From: Octopus vulgaris | Taxonomy: Eukaryota | Reading direction: 5' to 3' | DNA length: 64,000 nucleotides | Assembly (NCBI GenBank): GCA_951406725.2 | Contig: OX597818.1 | Coordinates: forward strand, 119,288,001-119,352,000 | Shown here: positions 2,673 to 26,890 of the stretch, piece after piece | How positions within the stretch are numbered: position 1 is the first letter of the stretch | Layout of the letters: every line of letters begins with the position of its first letter | Made by a program: the position numbers and the translations under genes | The notes under the pieces: generated by a model | Told to the model about the DNA's origin: nothing | Seen by the model: only the letters and a program-made list of their open reading frames with translations | Database searches by the model: none

Positions 2673-2893
2673 TTTCGTTAATATTCTCAAATATATATAA
2701 ATATATATATTATATATATACCTACAGAAAATTTACAGAAAAAAACAAAAGGCGGAGACAGGTGTATGAACAAGTTGATGTATTAGTTTGACGCTCGGGA
2801 AACATGCAAATATATATATATGCACACATACACTCACAAATACGTACACAGACACACACATATTCAAACACACACACATATACATTTATAAGA

Positions 2894-7554: not shown

Positions 7555-8824
7555 CGAGGGGCGTTCAATAAGTAATGCCCCTGACCCACTTCTCATAGCA
7601 GTAGAGCAACGAAACTTGGCACAGTTATTAGTCTTTTTCTACATATGAACCACCCAGAGTTACGCATTTCTCCCACTGTTTGATGCAGCTCTGGAGACCG
7701 TTTTTGTAGAAGACCCCAGCTTGGTGCTCCACCCACGACGTGACTTCAGAAATCAAGGCTGAATCATCTGGGAAACGCTTTCCTTTCAAAAACAACTTCA
7801 TGGCTGAGAAGAGGTGAAAATCAGAGGGTGCAAGGGAGGAGTTCAAAACTGCACGCCTGTGCTTCTGATCTGGCGACACGCGAATTGTGGACCGGAGCGT
7901 TGTCCTGCATGAGGAGGATGACTTTGCTGATCTTGCCCCGCCTCTTGATTTTGATAGCTTCTCTTAATTTCCTCAAAAGTGAAGCATAATAGGCTCCTGT
8001 AATTGTGGTACTCTTTGCCAGGAAATCTGTCATCACTACTCCGTCCTGGTCCTAGAAGACTGTGAGCATGACCTTGCCAGCGAAGGGCTGCACCCTTGCC
8101 TTCTTTAGAGGAGGTGAGTAACGGTGCTTCCACTGCATTGACTGGGCTTTGGTCTCTGGATCATCGTGATGGACCCAGGTTTCATCCTGTGTAATCAGTC
8201 TTTTGAAAAATGTTGACTCATCTTCTTGGCACATCTCCAAATTCATCCTCGAGCACTCGATGCGTTCTTGCTTCTGGAAAGGTGTGAGCAACCTGGGAAT
8301 CCAACTGGCAGACACGTTTTGCATATGCAAATGGTCATGAATGATAGTTTTCACAGACCCGGTACTAATCTTGACCTCATGGGCTATTTGGCGAATAGTT
8401 ATGCGTCGATCTTCCAAAATGGCAGCCTCAACTTGACGGACAGATGCCTCATCAATGGCAGAAGGAGGGCGACCAGATCTGGAAGCTGTTTTCACAGAGT
8501 TCCGACCATGTTTGAATTCATGATGCTATCCTTTTACAAGGTCATGTGATGGGGCATCATCACCACAAGTTACTTTCATTTCATCAAAAGTCTCCCGTGG
8601 TGTGCGTACTTTCAAATACAAAAACCGGATCACTGCTCGACACTCAACAGGCTCCATTTCACACTTGACTCAGTTCAAACACCTGTAAATCAGAAACCAC
8701 AATTAGTTCAGAGCTGTAATTTGCCACTTAATCTATAGAGATACAAATAATTGCACATGCAAAATTTCAGCTAGTTCAATCAACTGCAAGTGGGTCAGGG
8801 GCATTACTTATTGAACATCCCTCG
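7555..8824 (-). mobile_element. Full-length mariner (DD34D) DNA transposon, 1270 bp
   Basis: 37-bp TIRs CGAGGGGCGTTCAATAAGTAATGCCCCTGACCCACTT (7555-7591 and 8788-8824, 2 mismatches), flanked by TA on both sides. Confidence 0.97.
7628..8657 (-). pseudogene. Mariner transposase pseudogene
   Basis: Starts MEPVECRAVIRFLYLK; motifs WIPRLL, TQDETW, QDNAPVH, LAPSDFHLF; in-frame TAG at 8526-8528 and 8052-8054; frameshifting deletion near 7835 removes the YSPD motif. Confidence 0.95.
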
Positions 8825-8887: not shown

Positions 8888-8952
<65 letters not shown>

Positions 8953-8959
8953 GTATATA

Positions 8960-9150
8960 GGGAGAATTCACAAAAAACTAGAGACGAAGGCAGCTGGTGT
9001 AGACAACAAACAGATGTTTTAGTATAACGCTCGGGAAGTAGAAAAGCCTTTAACGTTTCGAGCCTATGCTCTTCCACAGAAAGGAACACAGAAAGAAACA
9101 AGGAGAGAAAATAAAGAATGTGTAGTGGCTAGCGATCTATCATGGCGAAT
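8960..9150 (-). mobile_element. Hammerhead-bearing short element between (TA)n tracts (Penelope pLTR/retrozyme-like)
   Basis: Flanked by TA tracts; related end fragments at about 2726-2802, 16308-16377 and 27830-27901; similar to 20205-20400 and 26774-26890. Confidence 0.65.
9047..9084 (-). ncRNA. Minimal type I hammerhead-like motif with variant core CUGUGGA
   Basis: CCTTT-CTGTGGA-A-GAGC atag GCTC-GAAAC-GTT-AAAGG: 5-bp stem I, 4-bp stem II, palindromic ACGT stem III. Confidence 0.65.
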
Positions 9151-9184
9151 AATAGATACACACACACACATATATACATAAATA

Positions 9185-9233
<49 letters not shown>

Positions 9234-9326
9234 TTAGAGACAAAACCAATATTATGCAAATCAAACAAAGAAAGACTTAATCCAATACATAAAAAAATTT
9301 ATATAAATTAAATAAAATTAAGTTAT

Positions 9327-9372
9327 CCACTACAATTGTTTCTTGTCACTTCTAAGGACATTCATCAGGTGG
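9327..9372 (-). ncRNA. Minimal type I hammerhead ribozyme
   Basis: CCAC-CTGATGA-a-TGTC cttagaagt GACA-a-GAAAC-AATT-GTA-GTGG: intact core, palindromic stem III ACAATTGT, GUA site. Confidence 0.8.
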
Positions 9373-9398
9373 TTTTCATACCTTCTATTCAATTTTAA

Positions 9399-12300
9399 AT
9401 TTATTATTATTTAATATATTGATAATTTTGTATATTGAGTGTAATACCTCAATTTCGTAAATTATTTGGATTTATTCCCTAATATTTATTACTATTTAAT
9501 ATATTGATAATTTTGTATATTGAGTGTAATACCTCAATTTCGTAAATTAATTGGATTTATTCCCTAATATTTATTATTATTTAATATATTGATAATTTTG
9601 TATATTGAGTGTAATACCTCAATTTCGTAAATTATTTGGTTTTATTCCCTAATATTTATTATTATTTAATACATTGATAATTTTGTATATTGAGTGTAAT
9701 ACCTCAATTTCGTAAATTATTTGGATTTATTCCCTAAAATTTATCATTATTTAATATATTGATAATTTTGTATATTGACTGTAATACCTCAATTTCGTAA
9801 ATTATTTGGATTTATTCCCTAAAATTTATTATTATTTAATATATTGATAATTTTGTATATTGAGTGTAATACCTCAATTGCGTAAATTATTTGGATTTAT
9901 TCCCTAATATTTATTATTATTTAATATATTGATAATTTTGTATATTGAGTGTAATACCTCAATTTCGTAAATTATTTGGATTTATTTCCTAATATTTATT
10001 ATTATTTAATATATTGATAATTTTGTATATTGAGTGTAATACCTCAATTTCGTAAGTTATTTGGATTCATTCTCTAATATTTATTATTATTTAAAATATT
10101 GATAATTTTGTATATTGACTGTAATACCTCAATTTCGTAAATTATTTGGATTTATTCCCTAATATTTATTATTATTTAATATATTGATAATTTTGTATAT
10201 TGAGTGTAATACCTCAATTTCGTAAATTATTTGGATTTATTCCCTAATATTTATTATTATTTAATATATTGATAATTTTGTATATTGAGTGTAATACCTC
10301 AATTTCGTAAATTATTTGGATTTATTCCCTAATATTTATTATTATTTAATATATTGATAATTTTGTATATTGAGTGTAATACCTCAATTTCGTAAATTAT
10401 TTGGATTTATTCCCTAATATTTATTACTATTTAATATATTGATAATTTTGTATATTGAGTGTAATACCTCAATTTCGTAAATTATTTGGATTTATTTCCT
10501 AATATTTATTATTATTTAATATATTGATAATTTTGTATATTGAGTGTAATACCTCAATTTCGTAAATTATTTGGATTTATTCCCTAATATTTATTATTAT
10601 TTGATATATTGATAATTTTGTATATTGAGTGTAATACCTCAATTTCGTAAATTATTTGGATTTATTCCCTAATATTTATTATTATTTAATATATTGATAA
10701 TTTTGTATATTGAGTGTAATACCTCAATTTCGTAAATTATTTGGATTTATTCCCTAATATTTATTATTATTTAATATATTGATAATTTTGTATATTGAGT
10801 GTAATACCTCAATTTCGTAAATTATTTGGATTTATTTCCTAATATTTATTATTATTTAATATATTGATAATTTTGTATATTGAGTGTAATACCTCAATTT
10901 CGTAAATTATTTGGATTTATTCCCTAATATTTATTACTATTTAATATATTGATAATTTTGTATATTGAGTGTAATACCTCAATTTCGTAAATTATTTGGA
11001 TTTATTTCCTAATATTTATTATTATTTAATATATTGATAATTTTGTATATTGAGTGTAATACCTCAATTTCGTAAATTATTTGGATTTATTCCCTAATAT
11101 TTATTACTATTTAATATATTGATAATTTTGTATATTGACTGTAATACCTCAATTTCGTAAATTATTTGGATTTATTCCCTAATATTTACTATTATTTAAT
11201 ATATTGATAATTTTGTATATTGAGTGTAATACCTCAATTTCGTAAATTATTTGGATTTATTCCCTAATATTTATTATTATTTAAAATATTGATAATTTTG
11301 TATATTGTGTGTAATACCTCAATTTCGTAAATTATTTGGATTTATTCCCTAATATTTATTATTATTTAATATATTGATCATTTTGTATATTGAGTGTAAT
11401 ACCTCAATTTCGTAAATTATTTGGATTTATTCCCTAATATTTATTATTATTTAATATATTGATAATTTTGTATATTGAGTGTAATACCTCAATTTCGTAA
11501 ATTATTTGGATTTATTCCCTAATATTTATTATTATTTAAAATATTGATAATTTTGTATATTGTGTGTAATACCTCAATTTCGTAAATTATTTGGATTTAT
11601 TCCCTAATATTTATTATTATTTAAAATATTGATAATTTTGTATATTGTGTGTAATACCTCAATTTCGTAAATTATTTGGATTTATTCCCTAATATTTATT
11701 ATTATTTAATATATTGATAATTTTGTATATTGAGTGTAATACCTCAATTTCGTAAATTATTTGGATTTATTCCCTAATATTTATTACTATTTAATATATT
11801 GATAATTTTGTATATTGAGTGTAATACCTCAATTTCGTAAATTATTTGGATTTATTTCCTAATATTTATTATTATTTAATATATTGATAATTTTGTATAT
11901 TGAGTGTAATACCTCAATTTCGTAAATTATTTGGATTTATTCCCTAATATTTATTACTATTTAATATATTGATAATTTTGTATATTGAGTGTAATACCTC
12001 AATTTCGTAAATTATTTGGATTTATTCCCTAATATTTACTATTATTTAATATATTGATAATTTTGTATATTGAGTGTAATACCTCAATTTCGTAAATTAT
12101 TTGGATTTATTCCCTAATATTTATTATTATTTAAAATATTGATAATTTTGTATATTGTGTGTAATACCTCAATTTCGTAAATTATTTGGATTTATTCCCT
12201 AATATTTATTATTATTTAATATATTGATCATTTTGTATATTGAGTGTAATACCTCAATTTCGTAAATTATTTGGATTTATTCCCTAATATTTATTATTAT

Positions 12301-12977
12301 TTAATATATTGATAATTTTGTATATTGAGTGTAATACCTCAATTTCGTAAATTATTTGGATTTATTCCCTAATATTTATTATTATTTAAAATATTGATAA
12401 TTTTGTATATTGTGTGTAATACCTCAATTTCGTAAATTATTTGGATTTATTCCCTAATATTTATTATTATTTAAAATATTGATAATTTTGTATATTGTGT
12501 GTAATACCTCAATTTCGTAAATTATTTGGATTTATTCCCTAATATTTATTATTATTTAATATATTGATAATTTTGTATATTGAGTGTAATACCTCAATTT
12601 CGTAAATTATTTGGATTTATTCCCTAATATTTATTACTATTTAATATATTGATAATTTTGTATATTGAGTGTAATACCTCAATTTCGTAAATTATTTGGA
12701 TTTATTCCCTAATATTTATTATTATTTAATATATTGATAATTTTGTATATTGAGTGTAATACCTCAATTTCGTAAATTATTTGGATTTATTCTCTAATAT
12801 TTATTATTATTTAATATATTGATAATGTTGTATATTGATTGTAATACCTCAATTTCGTAAATTATTTGGATTTATTCCCTAATATTTATTATTATTTAAT
12901 ATATTGATAATTTTGTATATTGAGTGTAATACCTCAATTTCGTAAATTATTTGGATTTATTCCCTAATATTTATTAT

Positions 12978-12981
<4 letters not shown>
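9399..12981. repeat. 85-bp AT-rich tandem satellite, about 42 copies
   Basis: GATAATTTTG-type motif recurs at 9421+85k up to 12906 with no indels and only scattered substitutions. Confidence 0.98.
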
Positions 12982-13011
<30 letters not shown>

Positions 13012-16023: not shown

Positions 16024-16085
<62 letters not shown>

Positions 16086-16168
16086 GGTCCCGGGTTGATT
16101 CGGGGTTAACCACAGTAAATAAGGTACTCAATACATAGCAGAGTAAAATTAATTTATTATATAGAAGG

Positions 16169-16219
16169 AGCTTCTACAGGACTAGAACTGTTTCATTCAA
16201 GAGAAATCTTCAGGAAGCT
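16169..16219 (-). ncRNA. Type I hammerhead ribozyme (mirror copy)
   Basis: Exact reverse complement of 16216-16266. Confidence 0.85.
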
Positions 16220-16266
16220 TCCTGAAGATTTCTCTTGAATGAAACAGTTCTAGTCCTGTAGAAGCT
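16216..16266 (+). ncRNA. Type I hammerhead ribozyme
   Basis: AGCTTC-CTGAAGA-tTTC tctt GAAt-GAA-ACAG ttctagtc CTGT-A-GAAGCT; GUA cleavage predicted after 16260. Confidence 0.85.
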
Positions 16267-16277
16267 CCTTCTATATA

Positions 16278-16308
<31 letters not shown>

Positions 16309-16379
16309 GTTGAAATTGATAGAAAAAGAAAAGATTAAGACAGGTGTATGAACAACAAACAGGTGTATTAGTTTAACAA

Positions 16380-16800
16380 GTGGTAAGTAGCTTGCTTACT
16401 AACCACATGGTTCAGGTTTCAGTCCCACTGCATGGCACCTTGGGCAAGTGTTTCTTACTATAGCCTCGGGCCGACTAAAGCCTTGTTAGTGGATTTGGTA
16501 GACGGAAACTGAAAGAAGCCCTTCGTATATATGTATATATATAGATATGTATGCATGTGTATATGTTTGTATGTCCGTGTTTGCACCCCCCCCCCCCACC
16601 AAACTTTGTTTGACAACCGTTGCTGGTGTGTTTATGTCCCTGTAATTTGGCCGTTCGGCAAAAGATACCGATAGAGTAAGTATTAGGCTTACTTAATGAG
16701 AATAAGTCCTGGGGTCGAGTTGCTCCACAAAAGGCACTGCTCCAGCATGGCCGCAGTCAAATGACTGAAAAAGTAAAATTACAAAAGAAAGTAAAAGAAT
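16380..16800 (+). mobile_element. SINE family A
   Basis: Near full length; first bases of the head missing. Confidence 0.88.
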
Positions 16801-20204: not shown

Positions 20205-20208
<4 letters not shown>

Positions 20209-20400
20209 CGCGTGTGTACCGTTGGCGATTTTTTCCTACGTCTTCCCTTCTCTGGATCTTTCCTTTTCCTATGTTTCTGACGAAGAGCTTTGCTCAAAAC
20301 GTTAAACCCTCCTTCTTTCCTGAGCGTCCAATAATACTATACTTGTTCCACCTCCCCGCGTTGTTGTGTTTTTTCTTTGTGTTTTCATGTGTGGATTAAC
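20205..20400 (+). mobile_element. Hammerhead-bearing short element between (TA)n tracts
   Basis: Contains GTTT-CTGACGA-A-GAGC ttt GCTC-aAAAC-GTT-AAAC (20273-20307); its 3' part is the reverse complement of 26774-26890. Confidence 0.7.
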
Positions 20401-20407
20401 TTTATAC

Positions 20408-20632: not shown

Positions 20633-22050
<1,418 letters not shown>

Positions 22051-23506: not shown

Positions 23507-23567
23507 TTATCGCTGAAGAGGGGAAAATTCTTATGAATTAACCCCGAAATTGGGACCAATACGGTAA
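23507..23567 (+). ncRNA. Type I hammerhead ribozyme
   Basis: TTATCG-CTGAAGA-GGGG aa AATTC ttat GAATT aa CCCC-GAA-ATTGG ga CCAAT-A-CGGTAA; all three stems pair; AUA site at 23561; inside a roughly 480-bp island between (TA)n tracts. Confidence 0.88.
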
Positions 23568-26374: not shown

Positions 26375-26471
<97 letters not shown>

Positions 26472-26704
26472 TAAGAAAAATAAAAACCGAAAATACGCAC
26501 ACTTACATGGTTATAATATAATTTTTAATGTATCGACCGGTTTCGCAATCGCTATTCATGGTACAATGTTTAATTTATATGAGAATATTTTTTTTCTTAA
26601 GAAGAAAATGGCTCCATGTTGTTTATAATGAGATTCACGAGTGAATCATTAAAATTATACTATAACCATGTAAGTGTACGTATTTTCCGTTTTTATTTTT
26701 CTTA
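26472..26704. repeat. Foldback with about 58-bp inverted arms and a hammerhead remnant
   Basis: Arms 26472-26530 and 26647-26704; minus-strand GAAACCGGTC-GATACA at 26529-26544. Confidence 0.8.
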
Positions 26705-26773
26705 TATACATTACAATCCACCACGTGGGGACAACCGAAATTCCTTTTTTCTGTTACTATATATATATATATA

Positions 26774-26890
26774 GTTAATCCAAACAAGAAAGCACAAAAA
26801 AGCACAACAACGCGAGGACGTGGAACAAATATAGTATTATTGGACGCTCAGGAAAGAGGGAAAGCAAGAGGGTTTAACGTTTCGAGCGGA
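26774..26890 (-). mobile_element. Truncated copy of the 20205-20400 hammerhead element, in (TA)n
   Basis: Keeps GCTC-GAAACGTT-AAACC and the downstream sequence. Confidence 0.7.

What the first reader, a model, noticed from the sequence alone, without database searches (positions are those of the whole stretch)
9228..12981. 85-bp satellite grown from a hammerhead-bearing element
Seen: (TA)n, about 100 bp, a minus-strand hammerhead (9327-9372), about 25 bp, 42 x 85 bp, then (TA)n. By eye the unit (TTATTTAATATA...TTTTGTATATTG...TTGGATTTATTCCCTAAT) resembles the reverse complement of 9228-9320 (TTATTTAATTTA...TTTTATGTATTG...TTGGTTTTGTCTCTAAT), the segment 3' of the ribozyme. Established: Penelope RTs are the closest retroelement relatives of telomerase RT. 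Inference: the array is an amplified pLTR terminal segment in inverted orientation, possibly seeded by reiterative reverse transcription. The AT-richness makes the similarity uncertain.
Basis: partly seen in the sequence, partly recalled or inferred. Interest (0 to 1): 0.75.

Follow-up and report, generated by a model that had tools for sequence, protein, structure and literature searches.

The report
Minisatellite beside a Penelope element end
A 42-copy, 85-base tandem repeat sits head to head with the cut-down, ribozyme-bearing tail of a Penelope-like jumping gene; it probably began as the tail of a related but different element and grew by ordinary DNA block duplication, which is a known way for satellites to arise.

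Summary
The anatomy is real. In order: (TA)n, 99 bp, a minus-strand minimal hammerhead (9327-9372), 26 bp, 42.15 x 85 bp, (TA)n. The left part is the 5'-truncated 3' end of a very abundant (TA)n-targeting Penelope-like element (PLE). Its hammerhead is of the Hydra-clade pattern, and related contigs keep helix III palindromic through a double change.

The unit is also a dispersed repeat. In contigs from four organism labels its end abuts (TA)n, a variant continues into another 3' end, and tandem forms with a different junction occur. Its likeness to the adjacent arm is only marginal (p about 0.01-0.3 by test). Each side matches its own family far better (92-100%) than the two match each other (at most 73%), so the array did not grow from this hammerhead copy.

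Variants are shared in blocks, with a ten-unit duplication (p 5e-5). That points to DNA-level expansion, not telomerase-like reiteration. A reverse-transcriptase jump could still have made the first dimer or few units; this is untested. Satellites from PLE ends are already described. Ordinary, low to modest interest.

The parts
9170..9230 (.). (CA/TA)n microsatellite, target on the left
   Evidence: Tandem Repeats Finder; loose ends before 9232-9233 are TA-rich in 3 of 4 runs as listed
9228..9326 (-). AT-rich segment 3' of the hammerhead; 3' terminus of a very abundant PLE family ('arm A')
   Evidence: summed contig depth peaks at 9251-9270 (1.28 million in X2) and falls toward the 5' side; (TA)5 begins 104 nt after the cleavage site
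9327..9372 (-). minimal type I hammerhead, Hydra-clade-like architecture, palindromic helix III at 9333-9338
   Evidence: double change at 9334 and 9337 keeps the palindrome, with equal depth and contig number in all 4 runs; compared by eye with File S2 of PMC8557442
9373..9398 (-). sequence upstream of the hammerhead, 5'-truncated end of family A
   Evidence: depth keeps falling to a minimum at 9401-9410 in 3 of 4 runs (X5 is level over 9391-9410); contigs span 9308-9378 and 9315-9385
9393..9403 (.). head-to-head junction at short AT palindromes (6-8 bp)
   Evidence: palindromes this short are common in AT-rich DNA
9399..12981 (+). 42.15 x 85-bp array without hammerhead; begins and ends with the same 13 nt, so the inferred monomer is 98 nt ending at (TA)n
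10929..12628 (+). ten-unit (850-bp) block duplication, units 19-28 against 29-38, one difference
   Evidence: 717 bp exact at lag 10 from 11140; 7 matching variant units at lag 10 against at most 2 at other lags, permutation p 5e-5
12981..13009 (.). (TA)n microsatellite, target on the right

Best explanation
A compound PLE scar that became a minisatellite. (1) Shown: a (TA)n tract holds the last ~170 nt of an abundant hammerhead-bearing PLE (family A) on the minus strand, truncated about 26 nt upstream of the ribozyme. (2) Partly shown: joined head to head is the ~98-nt 3'-terminal segment of a different dispersed, (TA)n-abutting family (U), most likely a sister PLE family's post-hammerhead segment. 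It arrived either by a template switch between two RNAs in one event or by a second insertion into the AT-rich end of the first. (3) Inferred: a first dimer of 85 nt formed through the 13-nt AT-rich redundancy at the two ends of the segment. The route could be the partial-tandem formation usual for PLEs, a second copy landing in the TA run next to the first, or DNA slippage; these cannot be told apart here. (4) Shown for the later history: the array grew by DNA-level duplication of multi-unit blocks (unequal exchange or break-induced copying). It has no ribozyme, no ORF and no evident function.
For: Hammerhead about 100 nt from a (TA)n, as for two more in this window (102 and 105 nt). Hydra-clade PLEs insert almost always in (TA)n and have the same motif layout near the 3' end (PMC8557442 Files S1-S2). 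Depth gradient and TA-rich loose ends at 9232. Unit end followed by (AT)n and other sequence in 8 contigs of X2 and 8 of X8; non-tandem contigs that share 9400/9401-9465 (4-5 differences, 1 gap) and go on into another sequence in all 4 runs (3, 4, 4, 3 contigs); tandem joints with other junction letters in all 4 runs, and one X5 contig with the window's own junction. Same 9-nt AT motif 89 nt before the TA run in both arm and unit. Shared alleles 36 of 46 and the lag-10 block. Satellites from Penelope elements, and local amplification of PLE terminal sequence, are stated in PMC12692304 and bioRxiv 10.64898/2026.07.22.740005.
Against: No hammerhead or ORF was seen upstream of any monomeric U copy; one search listed 24 of 172 loose ends and 32 of 3041 pieces, and the 31 upstream letters of the best monomer contig were not printed. 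Unit-to-arm likeness is marginal. The depth at 9461-9490 may come from other families that pass 80% likeness over about 30 AT-rich letters. Head-to-head joints between arm A and the unit side in other contigs have only 21-28 letters on the short side, which the tool flags as unreliable. No listed contig spans the stretch, so this exact locus was not seen in another individual. No PLE reverse transcriptase or GIY-YIG hit among 105 of 232 candidate frames scanned.
Confidence: 0.6

Rival explanations
1. The unit is not PLE-derived. It is the tail of some other AT-rich dispersed repeat that also lands in (TA)n, and it lies next to the hammerhead element only because both use the same target; the resemblance is compositional.
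For: p 0.04-0.28 in local tests; third of 124 flanks after composition correction; one background window scores as well; (TA)n tracts here are flanked by many unrelated repeats; no hammerhead linked to U was seen.
Against: No TA run lies between the two parts; monomer length 98 nt against 99 nt, and the same motif 89 nt from the TA run; best raw match of 219 flanks.
Confidence: 0.2
2. Reverse-transcriptase reiteration made a multi-unit seed. The PLE enzyme copied a ~100-nt RNA (the 3' product of hammerhead cleavage), re-annealed the cDNA end through the 13-nt redundancy and copied again several times in one integration. DNA-level duplication then enlarged it.
For: The first unit starts in the same register as internal junctions, with no leftover U sequence upstream. 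If U and A are homologous, that start lies within about 10 nt of the cleavage site. Tandem forms with two junction types exist. PLE reverse transcription starts about 110 nt into a fixed RNA site in vitro (PMC11167929). DRT2 makes tandem cDNA from an RNA template (PMC12039810 abstract).
Against: Block-shared variants need DNA-level copying. In X2, X5 and X8 the variant tandem joint has depth 12.5, 5.6 and 8.6, the level of the rarest contigs, so it looks like a dimer there; only X10 has it amplified (1021). Hammerhead cleavage was not needed for PLE insertion in vitro, and no RNA ends were found at the site. Minimal hammerheads cleave poorly as monomers (PMC4209133).
Confidence: 0.11
3. One reading: the array is the inverted copy of this same element's pLTR end, amplified in place by telomerase-like reiteration.
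For: Head-to-head geometry is typical of PLE insertions (PMC8557442; PMC3846280); marginal similarity.
Against: The arms are at most 73% alike while each is 92-100% like its own extant family; the real inverted insertion at 16152-16283 has identical arms; hierarchical variants; no tandem telomeric repeats in the window.
Confidence: 0.04
4. The array length or the ten-unit block is an assembly artefact.
For: No long reads were available; no listed contig spans the locus.
Against: The two blocks differ at one site; 10 singleton alleles lie mostly in the first nine and last units, as expected for real array edges; tandem joints exist in independent runs.
Confidence: 0.05

Closest known systems
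3' ends (pLTR) of endonuclease-bearing Penelope-like elements, closest in motif layout to the Hydra clade (Craig et al. 2021, PMC8557442; Cervera and de la Pena 2014, PMC4209133)
   Same: Minimal type I hammerhead with an extra base after the core and a palindromic helix III, close to the 3' end; (TA)n target; heavy 5' truncation; head-to-head arrangement.
   Different: No ORF in view, so the clade is not fixed (Neptune elements also have hammerheads and a microsatellite bias). The published Hydra-1_Obim and octopus Naiad ends do not match by eye or by four 12-letter motifs. The two arms here come from different families.
Non-LTR retrozymes and hammerhead satellites of animals (PMC7229834; bioRxiv 10.64898/2026.07.22.740005)
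   Same: Tandem array related to a PLE terminal region; local amplification by unequal crossover is proposed there.
   Different: Retrozyme units are 150-450 bp and each carries a hammerhead. This unit is 85 bp and has none, so it cannot self-process into a circle.
Transposon-derived satellites and minisatellites (review PMC12692304, which lists Penelope elements among the sources); Chlamys PLE families annotated with 'tandem repeats at 3' end' (PMC8557442 File S1)
   Same: Tandemisation of a piece of a mobile element followed by DNA-level expansion; more variable array edges.
   Different: Small (3.6 kb) and interstitial, with the (TA)n target and a neighbouring PLE end still in place.
Reiterative reverse transcription: telomerase (recalled) and DRT2 (PMC12039810, abstract)
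   Same: Tandem DNA with a unit that has a short terminal redundancy.
   Different: Not at a chromosome end; variants are inherited in multi-unit blocks; no evidence that one RNA templated the units.

Membership tests
EN+ Penelope-like element 3' end (9228-9398) | Minimal type I hammerhead with palindromic helix III in the terminal repeat | tested here: met
   compensatory double change at 9334/9337 in 10, 5, 3 and 2 contigs
EN+ Penelope-like element 3' end (9228-9398) | Polarised insertion into (TA)n with the 3' end about 100 nt after the ribozyme | tested here: met
EN+ Penelope-like element 3' end (9228-9398) | High copy number with 5' truncation | tested here: met
   depth falls about 190-fold from 9261-9270 to 9391-9400 in X2, and similarly in the other 3 runs; contig depth is not a copy number
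EN+ Penelope-like element 3' end (9228-9398) | Linked RT plus GIY-YIG ORF; clade assignment | not testable with these tools
   no genome held; no such Pfam hit in 105 of 232 frames; collection scans empty
EN+ Penelope-like element 3' end (9228-9398) | Self-cleavage of the hammerhead | not testable with these tools
   needs an assay; not the minimum-energy fold as a monomer
PLE 3' terminal segment (the 85-bp unit) | Occurs dispersed and ends at (TA)n elsewhere | tested here: met
   loose ends behind 9504 (8 + 8 contigs) and behind 9465 (all 4 runs)
PLE 3' terminal segment (the 85-bp unit) | Hammerhead upstream in monomeric copies | tested here: inconclusive
   one search did not print the upstream letters; one opposite-strand joint 9336/9398 (X2, depth 41) can be read in two ways
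PLE 3' terminal segment (the 85-bp unit) | Significant homology to a known post-hammerhead segment | tested here: inconclusive
   p about 0.01-0.3
Single-event inverted PLE insertion | Two arms are copies of one element | tested here: not met
   at most 73% alike with 16 gap letters, against 66 of 66 at 16152-16283
Non-LTR retrozyme | Hammerhead in every tandem unit, 150-450 bp | tested here: not met
   no hit in 9399-12981; unit 85 bp
Telomerase-like reiterative product | Units copied independently from one template (no block-inherited variants) | tested here: not met
Telomerase-like reiterative product | Enzyme re-uses the template in one reaction (seed only) | not testable with these tools
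   needs biochemistry or a genome-wide set of young insertions
Transposon-derived minisatellite | Tandem unit homologous to a dispersed repeat, expanded at DNA level | tested here: met

The most novel reading that the evidence does not exclude
A (TA)n-targeting PLE reverse transcriptase can re-use a short RNA, the ~100-nt 3' product of its own hammerhead, by re-annealing through a 13-nt terminal redundancy. It would then lay down multi-unit 85-nt concatemers in one integration, which later grow at DNA level. That would be telomerase- or DRT2-like repeat synthesis by the retroelement closest to telomerase, acting as a direct source of minisatellites.
Probability: 0.1. Interest if true: 0.75.

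Novelty: new member of a known kind. Interest (0 to 1): 0.25.

Why it matters
As best explained, it is a tidy, young example of a minisatellite born from a retroelement tail, with the target and a neighbouring PLE end still visible; it changes no model. It offers one useful handle. The same terminal segment appears to have become tandem with at least two junction types in related genomes, so a genome-wide census could show whether PLE insertion itself makes short multimers. If it does, that would link PLE reverse transcriptases to the reiterative synthesis of telomerase.

Tried and rejected
No whole genome is held, so monomers could not be pulled with flanks. Rfam gave no hammerhead hit, only microsatellite-driven miRNA noise in the rows shown. 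Folding did not favour the hammerhead as a monomer. The 270-nt arm-plus-unit strand does not fold better than shuffles (z -0.64), so a selected fold-back RNA was rejected. Exact-motif scans found nothing in metagenome contigs (2 scans), viral contigs or prokaryote genomes. No second copy of the unit was found in the masked window. Published octopus Naiad and Hydra consensus ends do not match. An ungapped 25-nt end test was out of register and is discarded; the offset scan gave at best 18 of 32. One distance printed for the arm hit an early TA run and was replaced by the value. Earlier-findings look-ups by sequence, genome and relatives were empty. Retrozyme membership was rejected (no hammerhead in the unit). 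A telomeric origin was rejected: one CCCTAA in 35 of 42 units, but no tandem telomeric repeats in the window.

Full report
Setting. The window is AT-rich animal DNA crowded with microsatellites. It looks octopus-like from recalled SINE-type repeats; no call names the organism, and no genome is held. The finding lies between a broken mariner transposase (7631-8525; Transposase_1 hits in 2 frames), another hammerhead-bearing stub (9047-9084) and a SINE-like repeat on the right (label recalled).

The observation. The array runs 9399-12981, 42.15 units of 85 bp, 97% matches. In the unit frame there are no indels; units differ from the consensus by 1.3% on average, and 18 are distinct. It begins and ends with the same 13 nt, so the underlying monomer is 98 nt ending at (TA)n. 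On the minus strand 9327-9372 has a perfect hammerhead core, a 4-bp helix I, a 4-bp helix II with an extra base on each side, and a palindromic helix III. The scan found 5 motifs in the window (2 with no mismatch), against 0-2 (none without mismatch) in each of 5 shuffles. Rfam misses the motif and it is not the monomer's best fold. Cervera and de la Pena report that a minimal PLE hammerhead from Schistosoma did not cleave as a monomer (PMC4209133, parts 1-2 of 4 read).

The left part is a PLE 3' end. Twenty of 24 listed runs, from four organism labels and nine studies, hold words of 9231-9570, none more than 0.46 of them. I laid 4 of these runs on 9231-9510 at 80% likeness (1808, 376, 658 and 171 contigs). 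Summed depth peaks over 9251-9270 (1.28 million in X2), is about 80,000 over the hammerhead and 6,600 at 9391-9400, and reaches its minimum at 9401-9410 in three runs (X5 is level there). Depth is not a copy number, but the slope is that of a very abundant, 5'-truncated family, and loose ends beyond 9232 are TA-rich. Two changes in helix III (9334, 9337) occur at equal depth and contig number in every run and keep the palindrome. Two more hammerheads in the window lie 102 and 105 nt from a (TA)n, and one lies 224 nt away. In Craig et al. (PMC8557442; passages; supplement parts 1, 2, 24, 52, 53 of 59), Hydra-clade PLEs insert almost always in (TA)n and carry the same motif layout near the 3' end. 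The clade cannot be fixed without an ORF; none was found among 105 of 232 candidate frames.

Is the unit the same thing inverted? The pairwise evidence is marginal: p 0.04-0.28 (local), 0.045-0.10 (end-anchored), 44 of 5000 shuffles and 1 of 2497 background windows (global, 56 of 77 identical). The arm is the best raw match of 219 other TA flanks but third of 124 after composition correction. A 9-nt A/T motif sits 89 nt before the TA run in both; this is post hoc and not independent of the alignment.

The contigs say more. (a) The unit's end runs into (AT)n and then other sequence in 8 contigs of X2 and 8 of X8. (b) In all four runs, 3-4 contigs leave the unit at 9465 for one shared different sequence, and the longest listed ones match 9400/9401-9465 with 4-5 differences and a gap; the unit therefore has a dispersed, non-tandem relative. 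(c) Tandem joints of about 84 bp with other junction letters occur in all four runs, at background depth in three (12.5, 5.6, 8.6) and at 1021 in X10; one X5 contig has the window's own junction. (d) Four kinds of head-to-head joint between arm A and the unit side occur, but with only 21-28 letters on the short side, so they are weak. Against: only 24 of 172 loose ends and 32 of 3041 pieces were printed, no hammerhead upstream of a monomer was seen, the high depth at 9461-9490 may belong to other families, and no listed contig spans the locus.

The two sides are not copies of one element. Contigs match the hammerhead side with 0 differences in 71 nt (X10) and 1 in 83 nt (X5), the unit matches its own family at about 92%, and arm and unit agree at no more than 73% with gaps. 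A true single-event inversion in this window, 16152-16283 between two TA tracts with a hammerhead in each arm, has identical 66-bp arms. The array therefore came from another, probably sister, family that lies head to head with A at short AT palindromes. Head-to-head pLTRs with junction palindromes are the usual PLE pattern (PMC3846280, passages).

How the array grew. There are 19 variant alleles with 46 occurrences; 36 occurrences are in alleles seen more than once, against 7.5 expected for independent changes. Two variants travel together in 6 units. Units 19-28 repeat as 29-38 with one difference: 717 bp exact, 7 matching variant units at lag 10 against at most 2 at other lags, permutation p 5e-5. 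Repeated copying of one 85-nt template would not give this; block duplication at DNA level does. Singletons gather in units 2-8 and 41, the pattern of older edges described for satellites (PMC12692304, passages). The first dimer is not explained by these data. Partial tandems are normal for PLEs; the variant junctions with TA-rich letters suggest a second copy landing in the TA run; the 13-nt redundancy allows slippage or a reverse-transcriptase jump. In favour of a jump, the first unit starts in the junction register with nothing of U upstream. Against, cleavage was not needed for insertion by the one PLE studied in vitro, and reverse transcription there starts at fixed internal sites (PMC11167929, parts 1-2 of 4).

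Comparison with what is known. It is not a retrozyme: those units are 150-450 bp and each has a hammerhead (PMC7229834, passages; bioRxiv 10.64898/2026.07.22.740005, parts 1 and 3 of 5). That preprint already proposes that a PLE's terminal sequence can amplify locally into tandem repeats, and the review lists Penelope elements among satellite sources. Several Chlamys PLE families are annotated with tandem repeats at the 3' end. PLEs cover 6.83% of the Octopus vulgaris assembly in 190 families (PMC13282606, passages and supplement search); that paper's library is on Zenodo and could not be seen, and it may already name both families. PMC9977147 (passages) shows that active PLEs give very short, truncated insertions. 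DRT2 (PMC12039810, abstract only) is the precedent for tandem cDNA. Seven searches listed no paper on a hammerhead-less satellite from a PLE post-ribozyme segment; I saw listings only for most hits, and the library lacks most subscription papers. Earlier notes of this scan on other genomes describe similar PLE stubs and one PLE-derived satellite; they are unchecked leads, not support.

Verdict. Real anatomy, a PLE 3' end on the left, and a young minisatellite probably derived from the tail of a related family and expanded at DNA level (confidence 0.6). New member of a known kind; interest 0.25. The telomerase-like reading survives only as a possible seed (probability about 0.1; interest 0.75 if shown).

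Noticed in passing
window 16083-16283: A 200-bp insertion between two (TA)n tracts with a perfect 66-bp-arm palindrome, a hammerhead-like motif in each arm and about 65 extra nt on one arm: a textbook inverted PLE stub.
   Followed up: partly
window 8949-9170 (-), 20205-20407 (+), 26774-26889 (-), 2721-2809 (-), 16308-16390 (-): Another family of (TA)n-abutting 3' ends, with a minimal hammerhead about 100 nt from the TA run where long enough (9047-9084, 20273-20307); both motifs have one core mismatch.
   Followed up: partly
window 23507-23567 (+): Hammerhead with a perfect core, 6-bp helix I and long helix II, 224 nt before a (TA)n.
   Followed up: no
window 26470-26757: AT-rich insert next to microsatellites with long inverted ends, seen by eye; possibly another inverted PLE stub.
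   Followed up: no
loose ends behind window 9465 in runs X2, X5, X8, X10: The dispersed relative of the unit continues into a sequence that looks like a splice site (consensus recalled); PLE terminal repeats can hold an intron.
   Followed up: no
run X10, joint 9491 to 9416: An 84-bp variant of the unit is amplified in organism D (depth 1021 against about 5 for rare contigs) but not in the other three runs.
   Followed up: partly
window 9399-12981: 35 of 42 units carry one copy of the hexamer complementary to the animal telomere repeat; no tandem telomeric repeats in the window, probably chance.
   Followed up: partly
window 7631-8525 (-) and 21154-21751 (-): Broken mariner transposase, and a LINE fragment with a zf-RVT hit just under the curated cut-off.
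   Followed up: no
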